Part shown: one piece after another, positions 6,425 to 33,158 of the stretch
Layout of the letters: the number at the start of each line of letters is the position of its first letter
Position numbering within the stretch: the stretch's first letter is position 1
Origin: Candidatus Bathyarchaeota archaeon
Lineage (GTDB): Archaea > Thermoproteota > Bathyarchaeia > Bathyarchaeales > Bathycorpusculaceae
Length of the DNA: 64,000 nucleotides
Reading direction: 5' to 3'
Assembly: GCA_963827165.1 (NCBI GenBank)
Contig: CAWGZR010000009.1
Location: 1 to 64,000 of the forward strand
Position numbers and translations under genes: made by a program
The notes under the pieces: generated by a model
The model's database searches: none
The model's input: only the letters and a program-made list of their open reading frames with translations
What the model was told of the DNA's origin: nothing

Positions 6425-6531
6425 GCCCAGGTAGTATAGTTCGGTCTCGACATGAATTCTTTCATGTTGCCGAAGCAGTATATGCGGCTGTCGCCCGCAG
6501 GACCCGGGTCCAAATCCCGGCCTGGGCGCCA
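6425..6531 (+). tRNA. tRNA-Asp(GTC) with a 29-nt intron in the D-loop (6447-6475)
   Basis: Acceptor GCCCAGG/CCTGGGC, G73 and encoded CCA; anticodon arm TGCGG-CTGTCGC-CCGCA; BHB motif TCGG/CCGA with TCT and AGC bulges. Confidence 0.93.
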
Positions 6532-6575
6532 AAACCTCTCTATTTCACCCATTTTGCGAAATAAGGCTGTAATTG
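6519..6575 (+). repeat. attL-like site: tRNA-Asp 3' core plus downstream arm
   Basis: ggcctgggcgccaaaacctctctatttcacccattttgcgaaataagg recurs degenerately at 25485-25542. Confidence 0.75.
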
Positions 6576-6638
6576 AGTTTTTTTTTCAATCTTATTCTCA
6601 GAGACTAAAGCAGAAAGCTTAACAAAGATAATATTTAC

Positions 6639-6698
6639 AACGCACTATTTCGTGTCTTTTTACACTAATTTGGGGCTGGGATCCCCCTCCCGGCGCCA
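6639..6698 (+). repeat. Hairpin plus tRNA-3'-end-like site (GCTGGGATCCCCC family)
   Basis: aacgcactattt...gctgggatccccctcccggcgcca; similar copy at 11041-11093. Confidence 0.65.
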
Positions 6699-6875
6699 AT
6701 TTACCGGTTAGGGTTGTTTTTGAGCTTATTTTGTCTAAAATGGACATAGTAGAAGTTCATTCAAATTAGTTATTTGCTACATTTGAAATCTTGCAAAAGC
6801 AGTAGTGCGCTCAGTTCATCGATAATTAGAGATATCCGCGGTAATTTGTATGTAAGTCACTTAACCGAGGTTTTT

Positions 6876-7030
6876 TCAGAATTCACTTAGCATCTCTTTA
6901 AGTAGCCGACCTTCATCTTTGCGTTTGTGTGCCACAAAGGTTGATTTGACTAAACCAAACTTTTGTGCGAGTTTCTCAGAGCTTATTCTACTTGGCTTAT
7001 CATAGTATCCGAACTTGTAGCCGCGACTTG
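6876..7030 (-). pseudogene. C-terminal fragment of a Bat/HTH_10-type regulator
   Basis: GYYDKPSRISSEKLAQKFGLVKSTFVAHKRK motif with no N-terminal domain. Confidence 0.7.
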
Positions 7031-7054
7031 GACTTTCCCGAGGCGCTGAAAATC

Positions 7055-7399
7055 TCACGGTTGATTTTCAGGCAAGTATTTTGTGGTTAGGCGACGCATC
7101 GTTTGCAGGTGTGTGTGGATGGCGGTTTTGCCTTTGTCGGTGATCTGCACAAACGTGCGTGGGCCGCCTGTGGCTTTGAAGCCGAAGCGTTCTTTCACGT
7201 AGCCTTCGTCGGCGAGGATTTTGATGCTTTTGTTCAGCGAGCTTTTGCTGACGTTGACGGCAAGCAGCAGGTCGGTGAAGGTAATGCGTTCCACTCCAAG
7301 TAGCGCAAGCATGATGCCTACCCGCACGGAGCTCGAAAGTGCGCCTGCTGAAGTGAACTGCGAGAGGGCTTGGTCGTGGTCGCTGGGCGGGTTACTCAT
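7055..7399 (-). CDS. Winged-HTH transcriptional regulator (MarR/HTH_34-like)
   Basis: RVGIMLAL..TFTDL..SKSSLNKSIKILADEGYV..PRTFVQITDKG. Confidence 0.85.
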   Translation of the reverse strand: MSNPPSDHDQALSQFTSAGALSSSVRVGIMLALLGVERITFTDLLLAVNVSKSSLNKSIKILADEGYVKERFGFKATGGPRTFVQITDKGKTAIHTHLQTMRRLTTKYLPENQP

Positions 7400-8054
7400 T
7401 GCTTCGTACTAGCTCCTGGGGCGCTTCATACATTGATTTGATGCCAGCGGCTATTAGAACAGGAGTTGCGAAGGCAAAAGTGATACTTGGTACACCGGGG
7501 AGCGACGCGAGTATGAGAATAACCATAGCCAAAGGCGAGGCAAGCCAATCTTCGATGTGGCTCTGCAGGATAGCATCTTTTGAGGCCCGTGAAGTGACAA
7601 AGATGTGGTAGAAGACCCATACGGCGACCCAGCAGAAAATTGTTGTAGCTGCTAAGTAGTTAAGACCGTAAATGTTTAGTAACGTGAAAACTGCGAAGGG
7701 CAAAACAAAAATAAGTAGCCCTCTGAGCATGTGGAGAATGCCTCTTTTCTTATTTTCCAATTTACCGTTGTATAAGTCGATAACGCGGGTCATGTGGTAA
7801 AAGCCTTTCATTCCAGCCGCTCGGGCAACCATCCAAACTATAATCAAGCAGACCACTATGCCAGTTAACGTCAGGTAGCCTGGTGTGTGTAAGGCAGTCA
7901 TTATGCTTGCAAGCAGCGGCGGCAGGGAGACTAAGGTGTAGAATACGCCTATGCCTCGCCTAGCCCTGAAACGAAATGCGGCGAGGGCAATCTGTTTTGG
8001 GTCTCGCCCTTCAGGCTCCAAATCGTTCTCTTGCGTAATAGTGTCCACTTCCAT
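7392..8054 (-). CDS. Hypothetical membrane protein, translationally coupled to the regulator
   Basis: About 6 hydrophobic segments; overlaps the regulator start. Confidence 0.65.
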   Translation of the reverse strand: MEVDTITQENDLEPEGRDPKQIALAAFRFRARRGIGVFYTLVSLPPLLASIMTALHTPGYLTLTGIVVCLIIVWMVARAAGMKGFYHMTRVIDLYNGKLENKKRGILHMLRGLLIFVLPFAVFTLLNIYGLNYLAATTIFCWVAVWVFYHIFVTSRASKDAILQSHIEDWLASPLAMVILILASLPGVPSITFAFATPVLIAAGIKSMYEAPQELVRSNE

Positions 8055-8100
8055 ACTGGCAGATATTATCTTAACTCGTTTGTTTTTAAGATTAATGCTA

Positions 8101-8132
8101 GTTCACAAAGTGAACAGGTTCATAAAATGAAC
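8101..8132. promoter_or_regulatory. Tandem palindromic operator GTTCAY-AAA-RTGAAC x2
   Basis: gttcacaaagtgaac and gttcataaaatgaac between the divergent regulator and ABC operons. Confidence 0.7.
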
Positions 8133-8340
8133 AAGTGTCCAGCTATTAATCAAACTTTTCCATTTTTGTTTTCGGGATAAAAATGACCCAAACAAAACAT
8201 TCACAGAAAATACAAGCAAAAACTCGTGGGCACATGGGAGCCACCTCAACCGCTCCAGACGCCCTCACCACGAGATCAACAAAAAGGAACGGCGCGGAAA
8301 AAACCCATATGGGCGCGTCATGCAACAGGAGGCGAACGAC

Positions 8341-9303
8341 TTGAACCCAATTGAAGTTACCCGTCTTGAGAAGCGTTACGGCGACCTAAAAGCCGTTGAC
8401 GGCATCTCTTTCACGGTTAAGCAGGGCGAAGTCTTCGGTTTGCTAGGGCCAAACGGCGCAGGTAAATCGACCACCATAGAAATCCTTGAGGGTCTGCGGG
8501 AGCGAAGCGGCGGAGACGCCAAAGTTCTCGGTTTAGACCCGTGGAAGAACGGCTACGAACTGCACAAGAGAATAGGCGTTATCCCACAAGAGTTCAGTTT
8601 CATTGAGAAAGCAACACCTCGGGAAGCCATAGTCTACTACGCTGACCTATTCGACGTCAAAGTTGACTCCGACAGCATACTGCGCGACGTGCTACTTGAG
8701 GACAAAGCAGGCGTAAACTTTGAAAGTCTCTCAGGTGGACAAAAACAGAAAACAGGCCTTGCATTGGCGTTGGTAAACCAGCCAGAACTACTCTTCTTAG
8801 ACGAGCCAACAACAGGGCTTGACCCCAACGCAAGAAGAGCCATCTGGGACGTCATCCGCGGTTTGAAAGCCACAGGCAAAACAATCATCCTAACCACCCA
8901 CTACCTTGACGAAGCACAACAACTCAGCGACAGAGTAGCTATCATGAACCATGGCAAAATCGTCGCCATAGGCACAACAGAAGAAATCATAGCAGCGCAC
9001 GGTACAGGCGAACGCCTGCAAATTCACGGAAGCCAAACCTTAGCCAACTACATCAAAGCCAACACTGAACTCCAAGTTGACTACGACACAGTCAAACAGG
9101 AAATTCTTGTACCCCTAAAAAAGAAAATCGACGCGTTAGCCGCCCTAGCCGCTGCGGAGCAATCAGGCTTGGACTGGGGAGCAATCCAAACCCGCCAAGA
9201 CAGTCTCGAAGACGTTTTCGTGAAACTTGTCAGCGGAGCAGTCAACGAGCAAGGCGAAGTAACTCAAGAAATCCAAGTTAAAACCAACCACAGGAGACCC
9301 TAA
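8341..9303 (+). CDS. ABC-2 type exporter ATP-binding subunit
   Basis: GPNGAGKST, LSGGQ, FLDEPTTGLD, TTHY; TTG 8341 follows GGAGG. Confidence 0.93.
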   Translation: MNPIEVTRLEKRYGDLKAVDGISFTVKQGEVFGLLGPNGAGKSTTIEILEGLRERSGGDAKVLGLDPWKNGYELHKRIGVIPQEFSFIEKATPREAIVYYADLFDVKVDSDSILRDVLLEDKAGVNFESLSGGQKQKTGLALALVNQPELLFLDEPTTGLDPNARRAIWDVIRGLKATGKTIILTTHYLDEAQQLSDRVAIMNHGKIVAIGTTEEIIAAHGTGERLQIHGSQTLANYIKANTELQVDYDTVKQEILVPLKKKIDALAALAAAEQSGLDWGAIQTRQDSLEDVFVKLVSGAVNEQGEVTQEIQVKTNHRRP

Positions 9304-9305
9304 AC

Positions 9306-10421
9306 ATGTCAAGCTTAAAACGAATATTGTCCGACTTCAAAGTTTTCCGGCGAAGCTACCTAAGAAACAGACTGGGGCTTTTCTTCGCTCTCGTTTTCCC
9401 AGTAATCCTAATCCTCATCTTCGGCACTATCTTCTCAGGAAACAGCTCAGGAACAATCAACGTTTATACCCAAAACCAAGACACAGGCCCCTTCGTGACA
9501 CCTCAAATAAACATAGCCGCCCAATTCCTCCACGCCCTTAACACTTCCAGCACAATCAGAGTTATCACAGTTGACCCATCAGAAAACTTTTCACAATACC
9601 TATCAGCGCATTCATCCTCAGACGGCATCATAATCCCAGCGAACTTCAGCGCCGACTACCTACAGGGCAGCCCAATAAACATAACAGTTTACGGGAACCC
9701 AACGTCGAGCACCAGTGGCATCGTAAGCAGCGCAGTCAACGGCTACGCCAACTACTTCAATCTGCACCGCTTCAACGGCACAACAGTCATCGGCATTACA
9801 GCAGCAACCGTTAACATCCACCAAACAAAATACGTCGATTTCCTAATTCCAGGACTCGTAGGCTTCACCATACTGGTCAGCCCAATGTTCTCGCTGGTTA
9901 ACATCTCCTCGGAGTACAAGAGAACAAAACTCTTCAAGCAACTATCGCTTACACCGTTAACAAAGATGGAGTGGCTCATCTCAAAAATCATGCTGTACCT
10001 GCTCGTAACACTTGCAAGCTTTCTGCTGATGGTTGCAATCGGAACCTACGTGTTCGGCGCCAACATTAACCTAACCGTGGGAATCATACCGTTCCTGCTC
10101 ATTGGACCCACGCTGTTCGCCTCTTTAGGCATGCTCATAGGTACAGTCACCAAAACCCCCGAAACAGCAGCTATAATCGGCAACATAGTAACTTACCCAA
10201 TGATGTTCCTCTCTGGCACATTCTTCCCCATCAGCCTCATGCCAACCTACCTGCAAAACTTCGCGCACGCGCTGCCGCTGTTCTACGTAGTCGAAGGCTT
10301 AAACAACGTCATGGTCTACGGAAACACGATGGGAGCAATAATCGACTTAGCAGTCATAGCCGTCATGACAGGGGTCGTCTTCACGCTGGCAGTTAAACTC
10401 TTCAAATGGAGAGAAGACTAA
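9306..10421 (+). CDS. ABC-2 type exporter permease
   Basis: FLIPGL, LTPL and PMMFLSGTFFPI motifs, 6 TM. Confidence 0.9.
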   Translation: MSSLKRILSDFKVFRRSYLRNRLGLFFALVFPVILILIFGTIFSGNSSGTINVYTQNQDTGPFVTPQINIAAQFLHALNTSSTIRVITVDPSENFSQYLSAHSSSDGIIIPANFSADYLQGSPINITVYGNPTSSTSGIVSSAVNGYANYFNLHRFNGTTVIGITAATVNIHQTKYVDFLIPGLVGFTILVSPMFSLVNISSEYKRTKLFKQLSLTPLTKMEWLISKIMLYLLVTLASFLLMVAIGTYVFGANINLTVGIIPFLLIGPTLFASLGMLIGTVTKTPETAAIIGNIVTYPMMFLSGTFFPISLMPTYLQNFAHALPLFYVVEGLNNVMVYGNTMGAIIDLAVIAVMTGVVFTLAVKLFKWRED

Positions 10422-10559
10422 CTTCTCTTTCCTTTTCCTTGGAAAATAAAGTTGAATGGATGGATGGAATTTGTATGCAAAAAGATGCGGGAAAAAACGA
10501 AACCCAAGTTTCCCAAGTAATCAAAAAACTGAAAAACAGGCTCAGGAGGTGCAAGGAAA

Positions 10560-10877
10560 TTGTCGTCGGTTTACTGCTCGAAGTGTGGAATGATGAATTC
10601 TGAGGACTCAGCTTACTGCAAGCGATGCGGCGCACCACTGCAGGCGACGCCAACCCAAGACAGCTACAGGCATCACAGACACCACGAACACAGCGGCAGC
10701 CACTCAGGGATTGGAGCACTGATCTTGGGAGCCATCGTCATCATAGCAGGCCTAGCCATAGTCGTACCCGACATCCAATGGGACATATTCTGGGCAACGC
10801 TACTCGTGCTCCTCGGCGTCTGGATCATAGGCTTCTATCTTGTGAGGACTTACCGGACACCAAAGCAGCCCCAGTAA
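10560..10877 (+). CDS. Zinc-ribbon domain membrane protein
   Basis: YCSKCG...YCKRCG, His-rich linker, 2 TM; GGAGGT SD. Confidence 0.8.
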   Translation: MSSVYCSKCGMMNSEDSAYCKRCGAPLQATPTQDSYRHHRHHEHSGSHSGIGALILGAIVIIAGLAIVVPDIQWDIFWATLLVLLGVWIIGFYLVRTYRTPKQPQ

Positions 10878-11040
10878 CTCAGACAACACCATTTCCTCTT
10901 TTTTCCTCATGAAGAAACCTTAGATTTTCAATCACTTTTTGAAGCAAAGGAGCGGCCAAAAGACCAAGGCCCAAGACCAACAACCGAACCAACCAAGAAC
11001 CTTGGAACCATTCTTCACTTTTGTTTCCGTTTTAGCGCAG

Positions 11041-11093
11041 AACGCGCTATTTTTACTGGTAAAAAGGTGCTGGGATCCCCCGCCTAGCGCACA
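11041..11093 (+). repeat. Hairpin plus tRNA-3'-end-like site (second GCTGGGATCCCCC copy)
   Basis: aacgcgctattttt...aaaaaggtgctgggatcccccgcctagcgcac, homologous to 6639-6698. Confidence 0.6.
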
Positions 11094-13876: not shown

Positions 13877-14222
13877 TTTTCCTTGCCAAATGGGTTGAAG
13901 TCGTACCTTTTCGCCCAAAAATTCATCCCATCTTTTCAAATAAATTAACTGTATAATTTAGGAGTGATTTTAAAAAATTTTAAAGCTAAAGCTTTAGCCC
14001 GTCGTTCATCGGTTGTTATGCCTTTACATTTTTCAATTATTAAGATTCCTCCAGATCGTCTGTCGGGAACATTACTGACCCGCTATCAGTCATAAACATA
14101 TCTGACTCTGATTCCTCGGCGCGCCCCGCACACTTTCGATATAAAAAATGTCTGCTATGGATTGTTTTTCCAAAGTTTTCTCTGAAATTGGTGTTTTAAA
14201 GTAATGGTTGCGCCCCTTTTTT

Positions 14223-15854: not shown

Positions 15855-15942
15855 GTTTTCTGGTGCAACCCGGCTACCGCACCACAAATCTGTGCATTAC
15901 CAATGCATAGACTTATATTTTAATAATGCACATTCTTCCTCA

Positions 15943-17163: not shown

Positions 17164-17185
17164 ACTGTAAAGTGATTTTCTGCAT

Positions 17186-17250
17186 TAGTTTGGTCAGGAC
17201 ATCAGGTTCCCAATCTGATAACTCGGGTTCAAATCCCGGTGGTCGCACCA
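17186..17250 (+). pseudogene. 5'-truncated or degenerate tRNA-Gly(CCC), att-type fragment
   Basis: TCAGG-TTCCCAA-TCTGA anticodon arm, TTCAAAT T-loop and TGGTCGC-A-CCA; canonical 5' acceptor and D-stem strands absent. Confidence 0.8.
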
Positions 17251-17400: not shown

Positions 17401-17530
17401 CAGCCTGTGTGAAAACTAAAATCGCGTCCAAAAAGTTGCTCTATATGTGTATAAATAGCATCTTGTAACCAAAATTATTCACATAAAACAAGCATTTTTC
17501 TGAAATTAAAAATAGTTTTTACACAGTCTC
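17401..17530. mobile_element. 130-bp MITE with IS1182-type ends
   Basis: CAGCCTGTGTGAAAACT...AGTTTTTACACAGTCTC with an ATTT duplication; empty site TGAACCC-ATTT-GGGTTCA. Confidence 0.8.
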
Positions 17531-22360: not shown

Positions 22361-22584
22361 CCAATAAGAGGTAGAGGCTCACTTTATTAATTTAGGAGCA
22401 CGCATGCGTGCGTTGCAGAAAATAAAGAAGACGGCGCATTCACGATCAATTAGCGAAAACCGCGACTTTAGTAGTGTGAACTCTCCAATGAATTGGCGCT
22501 TAAATATGGTTCGGCCATTAGCTTTATGTGAGACAACGCTTGAATTGACGGGTTGTACCCCAAAGGTTGGGGAGACAAGTTAAT

Positions 22585-23370: not shown

Positions 23371-23690
23371 AACATCGACGACAAAGCAGTGCTTAAGCAA
23401 ACGCTCAGTGAAATAGCTAAACTTTAGCCTTTTCTTTGAATATATTCTATACAAGTGTTATCCACTTTTTCTTCCCATAAATTTTTATCTTTTTCTCTCT
23501 CTCGAATTCAAACGCCTACAACTACGCACCTACTCCCACGCACCCGCGCGCGTGTAAAGTTGAAGTCACATACATTGAGCATCCACATAATTTAGGGACA
23601 AAGTAGCGCGCTAGAAATGGTTTGGTAGGTTCTTTTTCCAGTGTTTTAGTCAAAAGTTGTTGATTTTAAATTACGGTTCCGCCCCCTTTT

Positions 23691-25337: not shown

Positions 25338-25341
25338 TTTT

Positions 25342-25366
25342 GGGGTCAAATCCCACCGGGCCCGCA
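25342..25366 (+). repeat. tRNA-3'-end-like site
   Basis: GGGGTCAAATCCCAC-CGGGCCC-GC; left arm 23628-23690 is homologous to 14159-14220. Confidence 0.65.
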
Positions 25367-25425
25367 ACTTAACAACTGCTCAAAAAATTCATTTTTAACA
25401 GGAAAATGGTGCTGGAATTCACCAC

Positions 25426-26052
25426 TCAGCGCCTGCCCGAACTCCCAAGTAGTTCTTCCGAGTTAAAACCCAAGTGTGGACCTAGGCCGGGGCGCAAAAA
25501 CCCTTTATTTCGCCTCATTTTGCTAAATAAGGGCATAATTTGGCTTAATTTCTTATAAGCGCGCGCTAAACTTACTATGCGACTTCCAAGTGAGATTAAG
25601 AAAAATCCGAGGAAAGCAAACTCTACAAAACTAAATATTGCTTTTATCGGAAAAATTAACGTTAAGACTATACCTATGTAGAGGGCGCTTCCCGCATATT
25701 TTCCTACGGGATCGTACAGTTTTTTGGAGTAGAGGCTTGTTACTAAGAATTGAATAAACAATGCACTTATGAGGAGCAATAGCCAAATTGGATAGTATCC
25801 ATTAGCGCTGAAAATTACGTATATGCCAAACACAAGAATAAAATCTGTTGTAGCATCATAGTAGCCGCCAAGCCTTGAGGTCACCTTTAATCTTCTCGCC
25901 AAATAACCGTCAAAAAAGTCAGTCGCAGCCGAAAAAGCAAGTAAAATTAAGCATAAGCTAATGTTTCCTATGTTGAATAAATAAAAGAACAAGGGCAAAA
26001 CTGCGATTCGAAACGAACTTATGAGACTGGGAATTATGATTAGTTTCCGCAC
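25426..26052 (-). CDS. CDP-alcohol phosphatidyltransferase family protein
   Basis: PSLISSFR, TDFFDGYLARR...SRLGGYYDATTD motif; C-terminus runs through the att-like site. Confidence 0.85.
   Translation of the reverse strand: MRKLIIIPSLISSFRIAVLPLFFYLFNIGNISLCLILLAFSAATDFFDGYLARRLKVTSRLGGYYDATTDFILVFGIYVIFSANGYYPIWLLLLISALFIQFLVTSLYSKKLYDPVGKYAGSALYIGIVLTLIFPIKAIFSFVEFAFLGFFLISLGSRIVSLARAYKKLSQIMPLFSKMRRNKGFLRPGLGPHLGFNSEELLGSSGRR
25427..25542 (+). repeat. attP-like hybrid site (tRNA-Asp core with both arms)
   Basis: 25456-25495 matches 33117-33156 at 35/40 nt; 25485-25542 resembles 6519-6575. Confidence 0.75.
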
Positions 26053-26177
26053 GGTCTATCACTTTATCGAGATTACGCATCGCGCCACATTCATCTTGGC
26101 GAGCCTAGCCAATAATCGGCAAATTTCTTAGAAGGAAAAATAGTAGGTGAAATTAGGGTAGTTTGAATAAGCGTGAA

Positions 26178-26345
26178 TTATTGCTTTAGAAGAAAAAGGC
26201 ATATCGTTGTTACTATAGCTAATAACACGGTTAGTCCACCAAAGACGGCGTGAACAGTATGATACGTAGATCCGCTGACACCCGCAGTAATTACCCCTAA
26301 AATTACTGTCAGAATAGAAAGTATGCGTACGGTTTTTAGGTTCAT
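26178..26345 (-). CDS. 55-aa two-TM microprotein with a YHTVH loop
   Basis: GGTGA SD, ATG; MNLKTVRILSILTVILGVITAGVSGSTYHTVHAVFGGLTVLLAIVTTICLFLLKQ. Confidence 0.65.
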   Translation of the reverse strand: MNLKTVRILSILTVILGVITAGVSGSTYHTVHAVFGGLTVLLAIVTTICLFLLKQ

Positions 26346-26400
26346 TTGATTCACCACTTTTATGACTGCATGTTTTCATGATCGTGTACCGGTTTATTGT

Positions 26401-26841
26401 CTAAGAAAGGGTTTTGGCTAATTTCTCGCCCAGTTGTTTTGCTTGTTGCTTGTCCGTTTCTGAAATTTTGTTACCTATGGCGAGCCCAGGTAGAATAAGC
26501 TTAGGGTTGAACGCTTTGAGTATGCTTTCGATGTTTGCGGTGGTCTTAGTTTGGCTGCCGCCACCAGTGGCGAATGCAACCATAGGTTTACCAGCTAATT
26601 TTTCGCGCACAAAATAAAAGTCTGTCAACAAAGTCAACAATGGGCCTGACATCATACTAAAGTATGCTGGCGACCCAAATGCGAATCCGTCAGCTTCAAC
26701 TGCTTCTCGTGCATTGATGTCCGCAACATTTTTTATTTCAACGTCGACTCCTTTGACGCTTTTTGCGCCCTCTGCTATGGCTTCGGCAACTTGTTTTGTG
26801 TTTCCGGTTTTAGAATAATATGCAACTAACACTTTTGGCAC
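26401..26841 (-). CDS. Flavodoxin / WrbA-like protein
   Basis: YYSKTGNTKQVAEAIAEGA, GSPAYF, LAGK..AFATGG. Confidence 0.9.
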   Translation of the reverse strand: MPKVLVAYYSKTGNTKQVAEAIAEGAKSVKGVDVEIKNVADINAREAVEADGFAFGSPAYFSMMSGPLLTLLTDFYFVREKLAGKPMVAFATGGGSQTKTTANIESILKAFNPKLILPGLAIGNKISETDKQQAKQLGEKLAKTLS

Positions 26842-26919
26842 TTAAATTCCTCTATTTTATGAACAACTGGAGAAAATAGTTTTATATAGTTTTGGGTAAT
26901 TATAATATACTAAAACTTA

Positions 26920-27705
26920 GTGTTTAAAATGACCAAAAAAAATGACCCAGCTGACCAAGAAACTGTAACTTATGCCCTTCGTGAACTTAAACAGGAAGTT
27001 GGCAGCCTAAAAGCCGAGTTAGGCAGGATAGAAGGGGTAATCCTAAAAGATCGGTTAAGCGCAGTGGAAGAAGCTCTGTCTCAAAACCGCTTAATGCAAT
27101 ACGCTGACCTCCTAAATGAAGAAGCCAGTGGCGATATTGACGGGCTGCTAAATGCAGATTGCGAAAAAAGGATAAAATGCCATGAATACTTTGAAGATCA
27201 ATTGGCTAAAAGCCTGCTAATTGTTAAATCATGCGAATCGAAAGACGCGTTGGCTGATCTGGATGCAAAAATAAACCAAATGGGGATTCAAGCTGAAAAA
27301 GCTAAAGGCACTCAATGCGAGAGCTGTAAAACAAAATTTCAGAAGAAACTAAAAAGAGAAAAAAGAGCTTTCCAAACAATAATTCTTGTCGAAAAAATCA
27401 ATGATGACAACCGCAATCAAGAAGTAATTGATGTTTCTTTCATTGTTGAAAATTTGCTTGAGCCACTGGCTAGCCCTGTGCGGCTTAAGATTCTTATCAG
27501 TTTGTATGAAGGAAAGAAGAATTTCTCTAAATTGTCCCAAATAATGGAGCTAAAAGGCGGTCACCTTATTTTTCATATTAAAAAGCTTCTTGATTCGAAG
27601 TTCATAGCTCAAGAGGACAACAAAGGTGGCTACATCATAACCCCCAAAGGGGTAGATGCAATAAAAAAGATCTCATTTCTACAATCAACAGAAAAGCAGT
27701 TATAG
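26920..27705 (+). CDS. ArsR-type winged-HTH regulator with a Cys-containing coiled-coil N-terminus
   Basis: LEPLASPVRLKIL..FSKLSQ..LKGGHLIFHIKKL..GGYIITPKG; CEKRIKC and CESC motifs. Confidence 0.8.
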   Translation: MFKMTKKNDPADQETVTYALRELKQEVGSLKAELGRIEGVILKDRLSAVEEALSQNRLMQYADLLNEEASGDIDGLLNADCEKRIKCHEYFEDQLAKSLLIVKSCESKDALADLDAKINQMGIQAEKAKGTQCESCKTKFQKKLKREKRAFQTIILVEKINDDNRNQEVIDVSFIVENLLEPLASPVRLKILISLYEGKKNFSKLSQIMELKGGHLIFHIKKLLDSKFIAQEDNKGGYIITPKGVDAIKKISFLQSTEKQL

Positions 27706-27875
27706 CATAATTATTGCTTTAAGTTAACCTTTTGGTAAAATAATTGGAAATGTCATTGTAAATACAAAAAGACAAATAGCAACCGAATTGCGCGTTCGAT
27801 AATAACGTTTATACGTTGAATTACATTTGATTTAGTTACATGCTTTTTGTTTACCCTGAATCGGAATAATTTGAC

Positions 27876-29469
27876 ATGAGATTAAAGGAAAAAACAGTGT
27901 TTCACTTAAGAAAAAACAAAGGAATATTTTTTACAGCAGTAATGTTCACCACATTGTGTCTTGTACTTTCCAGTTTTTTGCCAACAATCCATTCCCAGAT
28001 CACCTTCGCCCTACCCTGTACCATCACCACCACAGGAAATGCCTGGGAAGGCTACATAGCATTCGACCTAGAACTTAGGCAGCAATTTTATGGGCACGGG
28101 GGGAAATACCAATTATTTTGTGGTTATGGATACTAATGGCACCGTGCTAGCGCTTCGTGAGTCTGACACTAGCTACGGGGCGGCTTGGAATATCGCACCT
28201 GATACTCTAATGTTTTTCGGTGAACCTCAAGTGGGTGGAGCTAACTCCGCCCCAACGTACGAAACGCATTTCTGGAACCTGTCCACAGGCACTACGGCGG
28301 ATTTTCCAAACGTCATCGGCGAACATGATATTCAATATGACCCAGTCAACAACACATTCCTCACTTTTCAGCAGTATGTCCAACCCGTCGGAAACAACCT
28401 GTACCTAATCGACCAGATTGTCGAACTCGACGCAAACGGCAACGTATTATGGACTTGGAACCCATACAATTACATACCGCTCAGCGATGCTTCACCGTAC
28501 AACGAAACAGCCACTTTTAACGATCAAACAGTAATAGATTTCACCCATGCGAATACACTAGATTGGGACTACAACGACGGAGTCATCTACGCGAACTTCA
28601 GAAACCTCAACACCTTCTACAAAATCAACGAAACCACAGGAAACATAATTTGGGGCTGCGGCGAATTTGGCAATTTCACCCTCCTTGGCGCAGACGGTTC
28701 GCAGCTTGTTGGTCCAGATGGTTTGCCTCCCAGTCTATGGTACCACTGCCACACAGTTGAACAGGTAACACCAGACGTTTTCATGCTGTTCAACAACGAT
28801 TTCGAAAACAACACCAACCCAGACGACTGCCGCAGCAGCTTGATGGAAATTACCCTTAACGAAACAAGCATGGCAGCTTACGCTAACTGGAGCTGGGAGG
28901 CTCCTGCGTCGTATTGGAACGCGTATGGAGGATCAATAGTGCATCTTCCAAACGGAGATTTCATGGGAGACTTCGGCGTTCCGACGCACCAGTATACGTA
29001 TAACGAACTTCCCGATGGAACATGGGACTTCACCGACACTGGCGCCGTTTTTGCGGAGGTTAATCCTGCTGGGCAACTAGTGAGGACTTTCACGTTTCCA
29101 GTCGGTTGCTATGTCTACCGAGTTGAAACGGTAACCGATCCAGCTTCCATTGCATTTGCACTCCCAACATCCGTGGTTGCTCCAACTCCAACTCCAGTCA
29201 CTCTAGGACCAACGCCGTTTTACCTTCCAACCTATCCGCCTTCTTCCGCCACTCCTACCCCCTCAACAAACACGCCAACGTCGACTCCAACCATTTCCCC
29301 TTCAATTGCCCCCTCAATAACACCTTCAAACTCGCCTAGCCCCAAACCCCTGGCATCAAAACTAACCATTGAGATTGCCGCTGCAACAATTATTGTCATA
29401 ATAGTGCTGTCAACCCTAATGCTCTTGGTGGCGAGAAAACGTGTTCGCTGGCGCAAGACTACCTCCTGA
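27876..29469 (+). CDS. Arylsulfotransferase (ASST)-like surface protein, frameshifted near 28075
   Basis: GEHD, DFTHANTL, IIWGCG and WYHCH motifs; Pro/Thr linker and C-terminal TM; signal peptide lies in the upstream frame. Confidence 0.7.
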
Positions 29470-29798
29470 CCAATAATTATTGTTTTTAAGCAATTTCGTT
29501 TCTCTTTATCCAAATGATAAGACTCCACATTATTATCTGCGCCAAGAAATTTTCTTTAATAACATCCAAGGGTGCTCTTACTCGTACGCGCTCTTCTTAA
29601 CAATCAGTAGAACTTACTATGGAGATTCTACGCTTGCCATTTGAAGCGGGTTCCCTTGGCTTGTTACCTAAACATTTAGCAATTAAGCTTGAGACTTTCA
29701 AGATTGCACGTCACCAAATAAGCCGACGAATCTCTCCGTAGGAGCATTTATACTGTTTTCATCCATCTTTTTCCCATTTTTGTATGGGGGAAGATCAT

Positions 29799-30923
29799 TC
29801 ACGTACTCCAAGAGCGCCTCATGAGGAATGCGCCAACCCCGACGCAGGCGATGGCATAAAGCGCAAGAACCAACAGCGAAAAGGGAAGCCCTGTTGGTTT
29901 GGGGTAGAACAAGGCCTGCCGTAATGCGTCGATCGAGTATCGGGTCGGGATGAACGCGCTTAAGGTCTGGAGCCAGTGGGGAACCAATTCTATTGTAGTG
30001 AAGCCTCCGCCTAAGAGGAACAGGTAAATTGCGGTTATTGAGGATAGAAACGCAACGTATCTTGAGCCTTTTATTAAGGTCCCGATTATTGCGCCGATTC
30101 CGGACGCGCACAATGCCGTTCCTAAAAATATCCCGAACAACGCCGGCAACTGACCAATTGGCAAGCTAACAAAACCAACCAGTACTCCAAGCAACACTGC
30201 CGGAAGGACAATTGCAAAACACGCAAGAACACCTCCCAAAATGCGACCAGAAACTAGCATCCAGGAACGCTGTGGCGATAAGGCTAGCATGTGAGCAGTT
30301 TTGCTCTCTCTATCCAGTGCGCACAAGCAGGCTGTTCCGACAAGACCCACGTTCAGAATCAAGAGCACGAAAGTGGGTACAAACTGATAGTGGAACCAGT
30401 CAACGTTAGTCTCCCTAATGTATTGCTCGTCCAAGGATACATGATACACATTAGGTAGGGACGTATTTACGAATTCGTCCGAGATGAGGGTTGGAGCATC
30501 GAATTCTACAACGGAGCGGTCAACGCTCCTGCGAATATCGTCCGAAAAATCAAAGTCGACGTTATTAATCGTGAGAAGAACCTTTCCAGTGCCGTTTGCC
30601 ACCTGCTCATCGAACGTGGACGGGATGGTAATGACGGCAGCGACCTTTTCATCCTGAAGCATGCTATTTGCGGTTGTCAAATTCGTTACTGTGAGATCAT
30701 ATGCCTCTGTATCCGATCTAATAATTTGAGCCATCTGCATCGACGCGGGACCAGTACCTTGGACAACTAAAGCAACAGGCTGCTGAGTGACCGACAGACT
30801 CAAAGTTACAAGGACCAGCGTCATGGCAATCGGCGGAATAAGCGCGCAAGCTGCAGTAAGAGGCATTTTCCTCCACCTCCTAAGGTCATGCAATGCGATC
30901 GTAAACAGCGACTGAAGTTTCAT
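29799..30923 (-). CDS. ABC-2 type permease
   Basis: AVITIPSTF, DRESKT..LALSP, LLGGGFT, PTRYSIDALR. Confidence 0.88.
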   Translation of the reverse strand: MKLQSLFTIALHDLRRWRKMPLTAACALIPPIAMTLVLVTLSLSVTQQPVALVVQGTGPASMQMAQIIRSDTEAYDLTVTNLTTANSMLQDEKVAAVITIPSTFDEQVANGTGKVLLTINNVDFDFSDDIRRSVDRSVVEFDAPTLISDEFVNTSLPNVYHVSLDEQYIRETNVDWFHYQFVPTFVLLILNVGLVGTACLCALDRESKTAHMLALSPQRSWMLVSGRILGGVLACFAIVLPAVLLGVLVGFVSLPIGQLPALFGIFLGTALCASGIGAIIGTLIKGSRYVAFLSSITAIYLFLLGGGFTTIELVPHWLQTLSAFIPTRYSIDALRQALFYPKPTGLPFSLLVLALYAIACVGVGAFLMRRSWST

Positions 30924-32023
30924 AAAAATCCCCTTCTTGAGAAAAACCACGCTAAAACCAAAGCACCGATCCCCCACCCAACCAATGCGAGAGCAAGCAG
31001 GGCGAACGGCTCAGGCGTGACCTTCAAATTGAAAACGGCGTGTTCCATCAAACCCACCGCATAGTATTCCGGGGAAAAGTGAGCTGCCCCCCAGATGAGG
31101 CTCCCGTCGAACCGTTGTGGCTCGTACGAACCGCTGAAAAGAAACAAAGGAAGCGCAATTCCGAGAACGAACAGAGCCACCGGAAGCGTCTTTTTCATGA
31201 CTGCGCCGAGTGCGGCGCCGATGCAGCTAAAAATGGCAATGCAAAACAGGAGGGTCAACACCATTTCAAGAGGTTGAGCGGGCGAAATATCATACCCCAC
31301 AAGGGCCACGAAGACTGTAATTGCTATTGCCCCAGCCGAAACTAGAGCAGTTGCCATTACCCGTCCGATCAGCGGAATGAGTGGGGGTACGGGGGAAATC
31401 GCAAGAATCTTGGCCGTTTTTGATTCAAACTCTTCTGCAACTGAGAAAGCGCTTAAAGTGCCCGCGATTATGAGGGCATCTAAGACCAAAGCGCTTGCAA
31501 TCATGTAGTTGATGAAGCTTGTGTCATGGGCGTAAGAGTCAGTTTCGACCACACCAACGTTTACGCCTTCAAACTTTAGTCCATCACCAAAACTCATAAC
31601 GGCCGAAGGTACCGCGCGTTGGATGTCCGCAGTTAGGTCGCTGTTGATGTTGTCAATAAAAACAGTAATAGGCGCGGTCTTTCCTTCACTGATGTTCTCC
31701 GAAAACCCTTGTGGAATAACTATCATTGCCACGAGGTCACCCTTTGCAACCATTTCCCGCGCAGCCGTCTCATTATTCATGAAAATCAAGTTGAATGAGT
31801 GGTGGTCATTTTCTAGGCTATTGATGAACACTTGTGCAAGAGGACCGTTGTCGTTATTAACCAAAGCAGTTGGAGCGTATGCGCCGGTCATGCCGAAAAG
31901 CGTCACGAGAATAAGAAACGTCACTGATTGAACCAAAACAAGTGCAATAAGCAGGCGTGACCTTCTCAACCTGCTTAACTCGGCATTCATTCCACCTAGG
32001 AATGCGCGTAGTTTTTTTCTCAT
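30920..32023 (-). CDS. ABC-2 type permease
   Basis: MIVIPQGFS, AEEFESKT..LAISP, LFLFSGSY. Confidence 0.88.
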   Translation of the reverse strand: MRKKLRAFLGGMNAELSRLRRSRLLIALVLVQSVTFLILVTLFGMTGAYAPTALVNNDNGPLAQVFINSLENDHHSFNLIFMNNETAAREMVAKGDLVAMIVIPQGFSENISEGKTAPITVFIDNINSDLTADIQRAVPSAVMSFGDGLKFEGVNVGVVETDSYAHDTSFINYMIASALVLDALIIAGTLSAFSVAEEFESKTAKILAISPVPPLIPLIGRVMATALVSAGAIAITVFVALVGYDISPAQPLEMVLTLLFCIAIFSCIGAALGAVMKKTLPVALFVLGIALPLFLFSGSYEPQRFDGSLIWGAAHFSPEYYAVGLMEHAVFNLKVTPEPFALLALALVGWGIGALVLAWFFSRRGFL

Positions 32024-32025
32024 GG

Positions 32026-32982
32026 TTATCGTCCAAGGGATTTGAACACTTCAGATAGATCGGGTGCGCGAAAACAGAATCCCTCAATGCTGCCGTACTT
32101 TGTAAACTCGCGTAGGGTCTCATCAGGGTTCGCGCCTTTGGCCAAGAATAATGAAATGCCGCTCAAAGTTATGTCGGTACGGGTGACCTGTTGGATATTT
32201 TCAACGCCCGAAGCGATTTTTTTGGCAGTTTGCTCGTCGCATTCGACGTCAATGCAACTGCCCGTCCGCCTCACTAGTTCGCGAGGTTCAGCAATAGCTA
32301 ACATTACGCCCTCGCCTAAAACTGCGACGCGGTCGCATAAGGCTAGTGCTTCGTCGAGATAATTAGTCGCAACAACGACTGTCTTACTCTTTGATCTGAG
32401 AAGGCGAAGGTAAGCCCAAAGCGCATGACGTGTATCTGCGTCAACTCCGAGCGTTGGCTCGTCGATGATGAACAATTCAGGGTCATGAAGGAAAGCTCGG
32501 GCAATAGCAGTGCGTCTCTTGAGGCCTCCTGAAAGAGTGTTCACGACTTGGTCGCGCCGGTCTGAGAGGCCAAGAATTTCAAGGACTTCAAGAATCCTCT
32601 TGCGCGAATTTTGCACATCGTATAGGCTAGCCGAGAATTTCAGGTTTTCAAAGATGGTTAATTCTTCGTAAAGCGCGTTTTCCTGAAGGACAAAACCCAT
32701 TTTTCTTCGAAACTCAGCGGTATGTGTTGGCATCTTTTCGCCTAGCACATTGATCTCTCCCGATGTATGGCTCCGCAACCCGGATATGAGGGAAAGAAGC
32801 GTCGTCTTTCCGGCTCCGTTTTTTCCAAGGAGACCCATAATTTCTCCGCGACGGACGTTTAGTGTAATTCCTCGAAGAATGTCTTTGCCTGAAATCCTGC
32901 AGTCGACGTCTTGAAAATAAATGACACTATCCTTCATATTTTCTTTCACAATATCAGTAGATTCGGTAATGTCAATACTCAT
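32026..32982 (-). CDS. ABC exporter ATP-binding subunit
   Basis: GKNGAGKTT, LSGGL, IIDEPTLGVD; H-loop reads ATNY. Confidence 0.92.
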   Translation of the reverse strand: MSIDITESTDIVKENMKDSVIYFQDVDCRISGKDILRGITLNVRRGEIMGLLGKNGAGKTTLLSLISGLRSHTSGEINVLGEKMPTHTAEFRRKMGFVLQENALYEELTIFENLKFSASLYDVQNSRKRILEVLEILGLSDRRDQVVNTLSGGLKRRTAIARAFLHDPELFIIDEPTLGVDADTRHALWAYLRLLRSKSKTVVVATNYLDEALALCDRVAVLGEGVMLAIAEPRELVRRTGSCIDVECDEQTAKKIASGVENIQQVTRTDITLSGISLFLAKGANPDETLREFTKYGSIEGFCFRAPDLSEVFKSLGR

Positions 32983-33087
32983 GGATTAGACTGGCAAGTG
33001 CAATAACTATAAGTATTGTGAATTTTCAAACATGAACCATAAACCTTATTCAAGATCATCAAAAAAGTCAGGCAGAATTTCGACCTC

Positions 33088-33158
33088 AAGCGCCTTGCCA
33101 GGTTCTACGCGTGATTTTCCGAGTTAAAACCCGAGTATAGACCTAGGCCTGGGCACCA
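33088..33158 (+). repeat. attR-like site ending in a tRNA-Asp-type 3' end
   Basis: Imperfect palindrome gccttgccaggttctac...gtatagacctaggcctgggc followed by ACCA. Confidence 0.75.

What the first reader, a model, noticed from the sequence alone, without database searches (positions are those of the whole stretch)
6425..33158. tRNA-anchored, integrase-free cassette array punctuated by hairpin + tRNA-3'-end sites (candidate integron- or tycheposon-like system)
Seen in sequence: downstream of tRNA-Asp, all on the + strand, the accessory region is divided by short sites ending in a tRNA-like 3' end. They end at 6698 (ATCCCCCTCCCGGCGCCA), 11093, 12296 (GTCCCATTAGGCCCGCCA), about 14130 (weak), 15884 (AACCCGGCTACCGCACCA), 17250 (tRNA-Gly), 17861 (TGACCCCGCCA), 25366 (AATCCCACCGGGCCCGC), 25496 and 33158 (Asp-type). 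Most are preceded by, or embedded in, an imperfect hairpin of variable length. The tails match different acceptor stems, the sites form homologous arm families, and no integrase gene lies between 6.5 and 33.2 kb. Established: tyrosine integrases duplicate tRNA 3' ends; integron attC sites are variable bulged hairpins recombined as folded ssDNA; tycheposons build islands on tRNA fragments. Inference: small non-autonomous cargo modules are stacked by a recombinase acting in trans that uses tRNA T-arm/3' ends as universal docking sites. I do not recognise a described system with this architecture in this lineage.
Basis: partly seen in the sequence, partly recalled or inferred. Interest (0 to 1): 0.9.

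Follow-up and report, generated by a model that had tools for sequence, protein, structure and literature searches.

The report
Integrase-less gene cassettes stacked at tRNAs
A soil archaeon (Bathyarchaeia) carries a 59-kb island behind its tRNA-Asp gene, built from cargo modules that have no integrase but end in conserved short sequences tipped with tRNA 3' ends, and the same module ends turn up in related genomes.

Summary
Seven of the ten listed sites (6698, 11093, 15884, 17250, 25366, 25496, 33158) are tRNA-derived or belong to repeat families of the form "conserved arm + tRNA 3' core". All seven lie on the tRNA-Asp strand. Three sites (12296, 14130, 17861) are not supported. No tyrosine recombinase lies in the window.

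The island is larger than reported: C9:6532-65831, 59.3 kb. In 45 of 65 related loci the flanking gene lies 0.4-9.5 kb after tRNA-Asp.

I found three arm families and one cassette type:
- F1, usually with a tRNA-Ser core: 23 of 61 genus genomes.
- F2, with a tRNA-Asp or tRNA-Glu core: 9 of 120.
- F3, with a tRNA-Arg or tRNA-Gly core: 3 of 120.
- A single-gene ATPase cassette flanked by tRNA-Gly repeats.

Modules share only their ends. Their cargo is unrelated, and they can be as small as 1.3-2 kb. Breakpoints in relatives fall exactly at these sites.

The "hairpin/attC-like" part fails: 1 of 9 sites folds better than shuffles, and there are no compensatory changes. Sites 15884 and 25366 are att-type sites split by an IS that prefers T-arm-like DNA.

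Best reading: tandem accretion of CIME-like, integrase-less modules by tyrosine integrases acting in trans. The helper integrase is not identified, and decay of once-autonomous elements remains a serious rival.

The parts
6424..6531 (+). tRNA-Asp(GTC) with a ~29-nt insertion in the D-loop region. It is the anchor (attL side) of the island.
   Evidence: Sequence read. Conserved next to the 654-aa gene across the genus. Most relatives lack the insertion.
6532..6575 (+). Left end (L-end) of the Asp/Glu-type module family.
   Evidence: The same sequence follows tRNA-Asp in G020 and L021 and follows the core at 25496.
6655..6698 (+). F1 right-end arm plus tRNA-Ser(GGA) 3' core. The core and downstream flank are identical to the real tRNA-Ser locus over 20 nt.
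   Evidence: (16/20). It is the only site with a significant fold.
6699..11093 (.). 4.4-kb module: wHTH regulator, 220-aa unknown protein, ABC transporter ATPase and permease. It is bounded by two F1 sites.
   Evidence: Pfam. F1 sites at both ends.
11050..11093 (+). F1 right-end arm (TTTTTACTGGTAAAAAGGTGCTGGGATCC...) with a decayed Ser-like core.
14152..14222 (+). F3 arm, separated from its core by IS-A.
   Evidence: 79% identical to the uninterrupted site at C4:123451-123522.
14223..15854 (-). IS-A, an IS5/IS1182-like DDE element. Its transposase is split into two ORFs (14311-14913 and 14917-15495).
   Evidence: Pfam. Copies and inverted repeats.
15855..15884 (+). Pseudo-T-arm plus tRNA-Gly-type core. 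It is the attL of the ATPase cassette.
   Evidence: CCCGGCTACCGCACCA is 15/16 identical to the tRNA-Gly(CCC) 3' end of G113, G137, G005 and G070. The conserved cassette left end TGTGCATTAC.AATGCATA follows it.
15885..17250 (+). Single-gene cassette: AAA_14/DUF4143 ATPase (15892-17163) plus a 5'-truncated tRNA-Gly(CCC) copy (17186-17250), which is its attR.
   Evidence: Pfam. Rfam sub-threshold hit covering model positions 8-63. 88% identity to the real tRNA-Gly. The same unit sits at the real tRNA-Gly in G120, G004, G074, G113 and G137.
17401..17530 (.). 130-bp MITE with the IS inverted repeats and an ATTT target duplication, inserted in a T-arm-like palindrome.
   Evidence: 100% identical to C3:73976-74104.
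23630..23690 (+). F3 arm, separated from its core by IS-B.
23691..25337 (+). IS-B with an intact 487-aa DDE transposase (23784-25247) and a TTTT target duplication.
   Evidence: Pfam.. One Logan contig shows an IS-less joint, 23686->25338 (weak).
25338..25366 (+). F3 pseudo-T-arm plus tRNA-Arg-like core.
   Evidence: 19/20 to tRNA-Arg(TCT). Uninterrupted homologues exist in G000 C4, G083 and G101.
25395..25440 (+). Decayed F1 arm that forms the outer part of a composite right end.
   Evidence: It lies 61-64 nt upstream of the F2 end in G000, L021 and G013 alike.
25456..25496 (+). F2 right end (TTCCGAGTT..AACCC.AGT.T.GACCTAGGCC) plus a decayed Asp/Glu-like core.
25497..33158 (.). 7.66-kb module: CDP-alcohol phosphatidyltransferase, flavodoxin, wHTH, arylsulfotransferase-like protein and an ABC transporter. 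It has an L-end at 25497-25540 and an F2 right end at 33117-33158.
   Evidence: Pfam. Ends.
33117..33158 (+). F2 right end plus core TGGGCACCA.
   Evidence: Zero mismatches to the genus pattern. Aligned with 11 other junctions.
33159..64000 (.). Distal accessory segment, continuing to C9:65831. It carries sulfite-reductase-like genes, siroheme/heme genes, ECF cobalt transport, ABC transport and cobalamin biosynthesis genes. No mobility genes and no recognised end families were found in it.
   Evidence: Pfam. Boundary. CbiD is patchy in the genus and lies elsewhere in relatives.

Best explanation
The finding is the tRNA-proximal half of a 59.3-kb genomic island (G000 C9:6532-65831) inserted at the 3' end of tRNA-Asp(GTC) in a Bathyarchaeia genome whose genus includes 'Ca. 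Bathycorpusculum'.

The island was built by serial site-specific integration (tandem accretion) of cargo modules that carry no integrase. In its circular form each module would carry one composite attP-like site: right-end arm, then a tRNA 3' core, then the left end. After integration this site is split into an L-end next to the tRNA or a resident core, and an R-end plus a copy of the core at the far side.

At least three arm families occur: F1, F2 and F3. Each family is found with more than one tRNA core (Ser; Asp/Glu; Arg/Gly), and Pro is also found in a composite end. A tRNA-Gly-type single-gene ATPase cassette sits inside the island, between a Gly-like core and a 65-nt tRNA-Gly copy.

I infer that tyrosine integrases encoded elsewhere in the genome, or on transient helper elements, catalyse the recombination in trans. 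I also infer that resident tRNA-like cores in the island serve as secondary attB sites.

An IS5/IS1182-like IS and its MITE later inserted into the pseudo-T-arm of several sites.

SHOWN: island boundaries, site families, their conservation across genomes, unrelated cargo, absence of integrases in cis, and breakpoints at the sites.
INFERRED: the recombinase class, action in trans, circular intermediates, and current activity.
For: ISLAND
- In 45 of 65 named related loci the homologue of C9:67106-68248 lies 373-9538 nt after tRNA-Asp. In 36 of those 45 it lies within 2 kb. In G000 the distance is 60.6 kb.
- The conserved flank resumes at C9:65826-65832.

BREAKPOINTS AT SITES
- L021 has a 2.08-kb insert at tRNA-Asp. 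It starts with G000's L-end and ends with the F2 right end, followed directly by the conserved flank. Its only long ORF encodes a 533-aa secreted repeat protein.
- L026 and L033 come from the same bin. They share a 94%-identical second module but have different tRNA-proximal modules, 1.3 kb and 3.5 kb.

FAMILIES
- F2: 9 of 120 genus genomes, reversed-pattern control 0, plus 11 metagenome contigs. Twelve junctions were aligned.
- The F2 core matches the tRNA on the same contig: Asp in G000, G020, L021, L026 and L033; Glu(CTC) in G071; a variant Asp in L108.
- F1: 23 of 61 genomes, control 0, in same-strand clusters. G016 has tRNA-Ser(GGA) followed by 7 sites over about 50 kb. G000 C1 has tRNA-Ser plus 2-3 sites.
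- F3: 3 of 120 genomes, with uninterrupted copies.

CARGO
- Among 17 compared segments, only the ends are shared: about 45 nt at the R-end and 43-140 nt at the L-end. The exception is one module shared by G066, L033 and L026.

ATPase CASSETTE
- tRNA-Gly lies directly upstream of the ATPase gene in 6 genomes. A tRNA-Gly 3' repeat lies downstream in 5 of them.

NO INTEGRASE IN CIS
- None in the window.
- None on the tRNA-Asp contigs of G020, L021, L026 or L033.
- G071 is a single contig, and its nearest PF00589 hit is more than 300 kb from the array.
- tblastn with 10 G000 integrases found nothing inside any F2 module.
- Reading: 4 of 53 F1 sites lie within 12 kb of a PF00589 hit. One of those four hits is a stop-riddled remnant.

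INTEGRASES AVAILABLE IN TRANS
- G000 has 12 PF00589 matches elsewhere. Classic int-bearing elements sit at tRNA-Ala(TGC) and tRNA-Leu(TAG).
Against: - No helper integrase was identified. The int-bearing elements at tRNA-Ala and tRNA-Leu use a different arm, TTGGCGATATCGCC.
- No excision or circle junction was seen in public data. Only Logan contigs were available, from 4 runs, and they showed no module-skipping joint.
- C-terminal integrase remnants lie about 120 nt downstream of F1 sites in G002 and G019, and a decayed integrase lies at G000 C9:145195. Some integrase-less units therefore arose by decay.
- The distal 32.7 kb (33159-65831) has no recognisable end family. Its right junction retains only GCGCCA of the tRNA, so its mode of arrival is unclear.
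- The ATPase cassette shows genus-typical divergence (70-86% aa). Its presence at tRNA-Gly could be old and vertically inherited, with losses.
- The genome is a MAG. The best read holders may be the source sample.
Confidence: 0.6

Rival explanations
1. Decay only. Each module is the dead remnant of a once-autonomous integrative element or provirus that lost its integrase by deletion. This is the classical origin of CIMEs. The array is a fossil record, and nothing is mobilised now.
For: - Integrase C-terminal remnants lie next to F1 sites in G002 and G019.
- A stop-riddled integrase lies between a tRNA and an F1 site at C9:145195-146754.
- Many cores are decayed: 11093, 25440 and 25496.
- IS and MITE insertions sit inside sites.
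- The IME review defines CIMEs as decayed elements that retain attL and attR (passages).
Against: - No integrase remnant was found in any F2 module, across 9 genomes plus 11 metagenome contigs.
- Units of 1.3-2 kb hold one intact gene yet keep both ends.
- The arms are far better conserved than the cargo or the cores.
- Within one bin, the tRNA-proximal slot differs while the distal module is shared.
Confidence: 0.3
2. Integron-like platform. A dedicated integrase next to the anchor captures cassettes through folded single-stranded, attC-like hairpins.
For: - In G016:C4, G023:C8 and G071 an integrase gene ends 80-130 nt upstream of a tRNA on the same strand. In G016:C4 and G023:C8 a module ending in an F1 arm follows about 4.6 kb downstream of that tRNA.
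- Site 6698 folds better than shuffles.
Against: - The gene upstream of tRNA-Asp is a conserved 654-aa protein with no Pfam family and is not an integrase.
- 8 of 9 sites do not fold better than shuffles.
- The pseudo-T-stem pair 19-30 is T.C in 14 of 34 copies, with no compensation.
- Modules hold several genes on both strands.
Confidence: 0.03
3. Self-mobilising cassettes. Some cargo proteins, for example the AAA_14/DUF4143 ATPase, themselves promote insertion at tRNA 3' ends.
For: The ATPase gene is the sole gene of a unit flanked by tRNA-Gly repeats in at least 5 genomes. Its 3' end matched in only a minority of the 120 genus genomes.
Against: - No recombinase or nuclease family was detected in it beyond AAA_14 and DUF4143.
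- Other modules have unrelated cargo.
- No test of this idea was made.
Confidence: 0.05
4. Chance tRNA-like motifs in ordinary intergenic DNA.
For: - Three listed sites (12296, 14130, 17861) are at or near chance.
- About 1-2 matches of 14/20 are expected among the + strand CCA sites of a 27-kb region. This is my estimate from the null.
Against: - Three tails have p<=4e-4.
- Strong fragments are about 9-fold enriched in the island.
- The arm families are conserved across genomes, with zero hits for reversed-pattern controls.
Confidence: 0.02

Closest known systems
CIMEs (cis-mobilizable elements) and tandem accretion at tRNA or other att sites, as in ICESt1-type islands of streptococci
   Same: The elements lack integration and transfer genes but keep attL and attR derived from the 3' end of the target gene. 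They are stacked in tandem by repeated use of the same site (definition read in passages of PMC5704250).
   Different: - This is an archaeal lineage.
- No integrase-bearing partner is present in the arrays examined.
- Several arm families each combine with different tRNA cores.
- Units are as small as one gene.
- Origin by decay is not shown for the F2 family.
Tycheposon-built islands of Prochlorococcus
   Same: Islands abut tRNA genes. Successive integrations push older material distally, and partial tRNAs are scattered through the island (passages of bioRxiv 10.1101/2020.12.28.424599).
   Different: Tycheposons are defined by an inward-facing site-specific integrase and shared hallmark replication genes. 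None of these occurs in the modules here.
Integrons (intI-attI platform plus attC cassettes)
   Same: Short conserved sites separate variable cargo units that stack at one anchor site. The cargo has no recombinase of its own.
   Different: - No adjacent integrase.
- The sites are conserved in sequence rather than in fold.
- The sites carry tRNA 3' cores.
- Modules often hold several genes on both strands.
Archaeal tRNA-integrating elements with SSV-type or pNOB8-type integrases, and arrays that re-use one site
   Same: Integration is into tRNA 3' ends, leaving direct repeats. Arrays formed by re-using the site are known for elements with tyrosine recombinases (passages of PMC6563490). Classic examples exist in this same genome at tRNA-Ala and tRNA-Leu.
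   Different: Those elements carry their integrase, either intact or split. The modules here carry neither an intact nor a split integrase.
IMEX-type elements that use a host recombinase
   Same: Integrative elements without their own integrase that rely on a recombinase supplied by the cell.
   Different: IMEX elements use Xer at dif. Here the targets are tRNA 3' ends, and no host recombinase is implicated.

Membership tests
CIME / tandem accretion island | The element is flanked by attL and attR repeats derived from the target gene's 3' end. | tested here: met
   F2 modules. F1 arrays at tRNA-Ser. ATPase cassette at tRNA-Gly.
CIME / tandem accretion island | The element lacks integration and transfer genes. 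| tested here: met
   No PF00589 or PF16795 hit in the window. Pfam, PHROGs and NCBIfam scans of the ORFs.
CIME / tandem accretion island | The element derives from decay of an autonomous ICE or IME. | tested here: inconclusive
   Integrase remnants lie near some F1 sites. None was found in F2 modules.
CIME / tandem accretion island | The element is mobilised in cis by an integrase-bearing element accreted beside it. | tested here: not met
   No integrase-bearing element is present in the G000, G020, L021 or G071 arrays. Mobilisation itself is not testable here.
Tycheposon | A site-specific integrase at one end of the element, facing inward. | tested here: not met
   Definition.
Tycheposon | Shared hallmark replication or mobility genes. 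| tested here: not met
   No primase, helicase, excisionase or capsid family appears in the Pfam or PHROGs scans. The family-specific profiles are in supplements that I could not see.
Tycheposon | The island lies next to a tRNA and has partial tRNAs between units. | tested here: met
Integron | An integrase gene adjacent to the primary site. | tested here: not met
   The upstream gene is a conserved 654-aa protein with no Pfam family.
Integron | attC-type sites defined by a conserved folded hairpin. | tested here: not met
   1 of 9 sites folds better than shuffles. No compensatory pairs in 34 F1 copies.
SSV-type archaeal integrative element | The integrase gene is split into two parts that flank the integrated element. 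| tested here: not met
   No PF16795 or PF00589 fragment in any of the six frames of the window at E<=1.
IS5/IS1182-like insertion sequence (the two IS copies) | A DDE transposase, terminal inverted repeats and a short target duplication. | tested here: met
   DDE_Tnp_1_6, DUF772 and DDE_Tnp_1 domains. Inverted repeat CAGACTGTGTGAAAA and 4-bp duplications. The family name is recalled from the domain combination.

The most novel reading that the evidence does not exclude
Bathyarchaeia of this genus may run a cassette economy at their tRNA genes. In this reading, integrase-less cargo units from 1.3 to about 20 kb are captured and stacked at tRNA 3' ends by integrases supplied in trans. Each unit is bounded by a conserved protein-binding arm joined to an exchangeable tRNA 3' core (Ser, Asp, Glu, Pro, Arg or Gly). 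Resident cores inside an island then act as further docking sites, so cassettes of different tRNA specificity accumulate in one island. Retargeting would occur by swapping the core while keeping the arm. Functionally this would be an archaeal counterpart of integrons or CIME accretion, but it is built on tRNA mimicry.
Probability: 0.35. Interest if true: 0.8.

Novelty: new variant of a known kind. Interest (0 to 1): 0.62.

Why it matters
Bathyarchaeia are abundant and uncultured, and little is known about how they exchange genes.

If these modules are mobilised in trans, they would explain how accessory genes move in this genus without each unit paying for its own integrase. The cargo here includes transporters, cofactor pathways, surface proteins and sensor kinases. 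The conserved arms would also give a simple sequence handle for mapping the flexible genome in metagenomes.

The "same arm, different tRNA core" pattern offers a natural experiment on how integrase target specificity is re-assigned.

If the modules are only fossils, the locus is still a clear archaeal example of island growth by tandem accretion.

Tried and rejected
- ARAGORN and Rfam at default settings found no tRNA in the window. This is a detection failure caused by the D-loop insertion, not absence.
- The synteny comparison by tblastx of 14 relatives against the window alone was uninformative. Comparison against the whole genome located the flank.
- The left-arm pattern AAGGCTGTTTTTGAGCTTATTT at <=5 mismatches is too noisy. 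The reversed control gave 11 hits, so I dropped it.
- The integrase arms at tRNA-Ala and tRNA-Leu differ from F1, so those integrases are not obvious helpers.
- G071's only full-length non-Xer-like integrase (439 aa, beside tRNA-His) lies more than 1.1 Mb from its array. It is 38.6% identical to G000's C10 integrase. No link to the array could be made.
- A viral-contig scan for the F2 end found 0 hits.
- Public runs were available only as Logan contigs. I laid 4 of the 20 listed runs on 15001-35000. No joint removed a module. One contig skips IS-B, with a flank of 28 nt, below the tool's own caution line. Rare excision cannot be excluded. Regions without cover are not evidence.
- Site 12296: the neighbouring repeats on C5 and C13 do not extend to the tail.
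- The recurrent 'cargo family' proved to be PAS / response-regulator-type proteins by their N-terminal sequences. I do not take them as a mobility gene.
- Supplements of papers were not opened. The tycheposon supplementary documents may show integrase-less units that I could not see.
- Literature: searches listed no paper describing such arrays in Bathyarchaeia. These two searches do not show that none exists.

Full report
**1. Organism and anchor**

The window is G000:C9:1-64000 of a 3.13-Mb, 14-contig genome. Named relatives of the neighbouring 654-aa gene are Bathyarchaeia MAGs, including 'Ca. Bathycorpusculum'.

ARAGORN and Rfam at gathering threshold report no tRNA in the window. Even so, 6424-6531 reads as tRNA-Asp(GTC) interrupted by about 29 nt after position 23/24. 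Most relatives have the same tRNA without the insertion, next to the same gene. ARAGORN with introns allowed finds 41 tRNAs genome-wide. Rfam adds a few more.

**2. The island is real and larger than reported**

I compared 20 kb downstream of tRNA-Asp in 14 relatives against the whole G000 genome. The next conserved genes correspond to C9:66232-74545.

In 45 of 65 named loci the homologue of C9:67106-68248 lies 373-9538 nt after tRNA-Asp, and in 36 of those it lies within 2 kb. In the remaining 20 loci the tRNA end or the gene was not found in the DNA held. In G000 the distance is 60.6 kb.

Spacer alignments place the resumption of conserved flank at C9:65826-65832, preceded only by ...AAGCGCCA. 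The inserted DNA is therefore 6532-65831, or 59,300 nt.

No PF00589 or PF16795 match lies in C9:1-64000, in any of the six frames, at E<=1. The genome has 12 PF00589 matches elsewhere.

**3. Testing the ten tails**

I scored each tail against 40 host tRNA 3' ends. Six of 46 tRNA entries were dropped first: Rfam-only hits, the SeC call and an odd tRNA-Pro. The null was 4778 random CCA-ending sites. Real tRNAs were not removed from the null, so the p-values are conservative.

| Site | Best match | Empirical p |
|---|---|---|
| 6698 | 16/20 | <=4e-4 |
| 17250 | 18/20 | <=4e-4 |
| 25366 | 19/20 | <=4e-4 |
| 12296, 15884 | 14/20 | 0.004 |
| 11093, 33158 | 13/20 | 0.02 |
| 14130, 25496 | 12/20 | 0.08 |
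| 17861 | 10/20 | 0.55 |

A genome-wide BLAST of tRNA 3' 30-mers gives 18 strong clusters (>=34 bits) outside annotated tRNAs. Three lie in the island, all on the + strand, against 0.34 expected by length. At >=26 bits the island holds 5 clusters (3 on +, 2 on -) against 1.58 expected. Only the strong class is informative.

**4. Arm family F2 (Asp/Glu)**

Sites 25456-25496 and 33117-33158 share a 38-nt repeat at 89% identity.

- The motif TTCCGAGTT..AACCCGAGT.T.GA.CTAGGCC occurs in 9 of 120 genus genomes. The reversed-pattern control gives 0.
- It occurs in 11 metagenome contigs and in no viral contig.
- Twelve junctions align into a near-invariant block of about 46 nt.
[quoted passage not shown] This is Asp in G000, G020, L021, L026 and L033, Glu(CTC) in G071 (two sites), and a variant Asp in L108.

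In L021 a 2.08-kb insert at tRNA-Asp begins with the sequence found at G000 6532-6573. It ends with this block, and the conserved chromosomal flank follows directly. Its only long ORF is a 533-aa secreted repeat protein.

A conserved left end (L-end) follows tRNA-Asp in G000 and G020. It also follows the core at 25496 and at tandem junctions in G066, L026, L033 and G071.

**5. Arm family F1**

- At 6698 the arm is followed by 20 nt identical to the tRNA-Ser(GGA) 3' end and its downstream flank.
- On contig C1 the real tRNA-Ser(GGA) is followed by two to three such sites.
- In G016 tRNA-Ser(GGA) is followed by seven sites over about 50 kb.
- The arm occurs in 23 of 61 genus genomes (control 0), often in same-strand clusters.
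- In G000 (25395), L021 and G013 it lies 61-64 nt upstream of the F2 block, forming a composite right end.
- In G023 it is followed about 40 nt later by a core matching the local tRNA-Pro(GGG).
- At C9:142869-146795 it closes a 3.8-kb unit behind another tRNA. That unit holds a stop-riddled integrase remnant.

**6. Arm family F3 and the IS**

Sites 15884 and 25366 lie just outside two copies of a 1.63-1.65-kb IS with a DDE transposase. The IS has the inverted repeat CAGACTGTGTGAAAA and 4-bp target duplications.

The DNA on the other side of each IS copy (14152-14222 and 23630-23690) is homologous to an uninterrupted site at C4:123451-123522. That site consists of a ~70-nt arm, then TTTT, then a pseudo-T-arm, then a tRNA-Arg-like core. 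Uninterrupted copies also exist in G083 and G101. In all, 3 of 120 genomes have the arm, against a control of 0.

The two window sites are therefore att-type sites that the IS has split. The IS family shows a target preference. Six of 20 IR ends abut a T-arm-like 12-mer within 30 nt, against 38 of 20,000 random windows. A 130-bp MITE of the same family sits at 17401-17530.

**7. The ATPase cassette**

The unit 15885-17250 holds one gene, an AAA_14/DUF4143 ATPase, followed by a tRNA-Gly(CCC) copy. That copy lacks its 5' acceptor strand: the Rfam hit covers positions 8-63 at 28 bits, below threshold. It is 88% identical to the real tRNA-Gly gene.

- In G120, G004, G074, G005, G113 and G137 the homologous ATPase gene lies directly after the real tRNA-Gly.
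- In five of these six genomes (not G005) a repeat of the tRNA-Gly 3' end follows the gene.
- The left end TGTGCATTA..AATGCATA is conserved. In the window it directly follows 15884.
- The last 16 nt before 15884 are 15/16 identical to that tRNA-Gly 3' end.

Sites 15884 and 17250 are therefore the two att copies of a tRNA-Gly-type single-gene cassette lodged inside the tRNA-Asp island.

**8. Cargo and integrases**

Among 17 module segments compared by blastn and tblastx, only the ends are shared. The exception is one module present in G066, L033 and L026. Those three loci have different tRNA-proximal modules of 7.06, 3.5 and 1.3 kb.

No integrase was found in any F2 module. The checks were tblastn with 10 G000 integrases and PF00589 on G020, the L021, L026 and L033 genomes, G071, G066, G013, G101 and G124. 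G071 is a single contig, and its nearest hit is more than 300 kb from the array.

Reading the F1 sites against the integrase places, 4 of 53 sites lie within 12 kb of a hit. In two of these the integrase lies upstream of the tRNA rather than inside the module, and one is a remnant.

Against the trans-mobilisation reading, C-terminal integrase fragments lie about 120 nt beyond F1 sites in G002 and G019.

**9. Hairpins**

Folding 70 nt ending at each of nine sites as ssDNA gave one significant fold: 6698, z -2.88. Site 11093 gave -1.73, and the other seven ranged from -1.08 to +1.13.

In 34 distinct F1 copies, columns 23-31, which the search pattern did not select, are conserved, while the core beyond column 32 varies. 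The would-be stem pair 19-30 is T.C in 14 copies with no compensating change.

The F1 arm contains a 7+7 palindrome with a 2-nt centre. The F2 block contains a direct repeat, CCGAGT...CCGAGT. Both features can be read directly in the sequences. They look like protein-binding sites, not folded attC-like sites.

**10. Distal segment**

The segment 33159-65831 encodes sulfite-reductase-like proteins, siroheme decarboxylase-like and radical-SAM proteins, ECF cobalt transport, ABC transport and cobalamin synthesis genes. CbiD is present in 11 of 24 genus relatives, at other loci. No end family was recognised in this segment. How it arrived is unresolved.

**11. Comparison with known systems**

The closest concept is tandem accretion with CIMEs: elements that keep attL and attR but have lost integration genes (passages of PMC5704250).

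Tycheposon-built islands share the tRNA anchor and the scattered partial tRNAs. Tycheposons, however, are defined by an integrase and hallmark genes (passages of the preprint), and these are absent here.

Arrays formed by re-use of one site are known for archaeal elements with tyrosine recombinases (passages of PMC6563490).

For 'Pervasive suicidal integrases' and 'Archaeal tyrosine recombinases' I saw only the search listings and the start of the abstracts.

Searches listed no description of such arrays in Bathyarchaeia. That is weak evidence of novelty.

**12. Verdict**

The integron-style folding and the 'universal' docking are not supported, and three sites are noise.

The best-supported mechanism is serial integrase-mediated integration of non-autonomous, att-bounded modules, with decay and IS activity overlaid. 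Action in trans is inferred, not shown.

Noticed in passing
window 14223-15854, 23691-25337 and 17401-17530; G000 C3 and C13 copies: An IS5/IS1182-like IS and its 130-bp MITE insert next to T-arm-like sequence (GGGTTCAAATCC with <=2 mismatches). Six of 20 IR ends abut such sequence, against 38 of 20,000 random windows. Insertions are often at the centre of CCC-WTTW-GGG palindromes. This IS family appears to target tRNA-like or att-remnant DNA.
   Followed up: partly
window 6424-6531; G000 C5:363160-363242: tRNA-Asp(GTC) and a tRNA-Glu(CTC) each carry an insertion of about 29-35 nt in the D-loop region that hides them from ARAGORN. The tRNA-Asp insertion is present in G000, G003, G019, G029 and L021 but absent from most relatives.
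   Followed up: partly
window 19921-20580: A CdvB1/B2 (ESCRT-III)-like paralogue (NCBIfam E=3.9e-52, below the equivalog cut-off) lies inside the island. A copy 78.7% identical at nucleotide level lies at C4:180646-181827.
   Followed up: no
window 17749-18031 and 21981-22125; C9:266466-266747: A low-copy repeat of about 280 nt is present as an inverted pair, bracketing a 4-kb segment that carries an HNH endonuclease gene (18322-18939). The claimed site 17861 lies inside this repeat.
   Followed up: no
G016:C4 (L090), G023:C8 (L091), G071:C1 (L115): In three genomes a full-length tyrosine integrase gene ends 80-130 nt upstream of a tRNA gene (Arg-TCG, Pro-GGG, His-GTG) on the same strand. In G016:C4 and G023:C8 a module ending in an F1 arm follows about 4.6 kb downstream of that tRNA. 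This geometry is unusual for 3'-end integration.
   Followed up: partly
window 33159-64000 (to C9:65831): A complete-looking heme/siroheme, cobalamin biosynthesis and cobalt transport cluster sits inside the tRNA-Asp island. CbiD is found in only 11 of 24 genus relatives, and at other loci.
   Followed up: partly
window 25426-26052 (-): The ORF of the CDP-alcohol phosphatidyltransferase runs through the L-end and into the F2 right end before its stop codon. Its last ~50 codons are therefore encoded by the junction sequence.
   Followed up: no
G000 C10:392660-407473 and C5:314726-333146: Two classic integrase-bearing elements sit at tRNA-Ala(TGC) and tRNA-Leu(TAG). They have exact 24-26-nt attR repeats and share a right arm containing TTGGCGATATCGCC, distinct from the F1, F2 and F3 arms.
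   Followed up: partly
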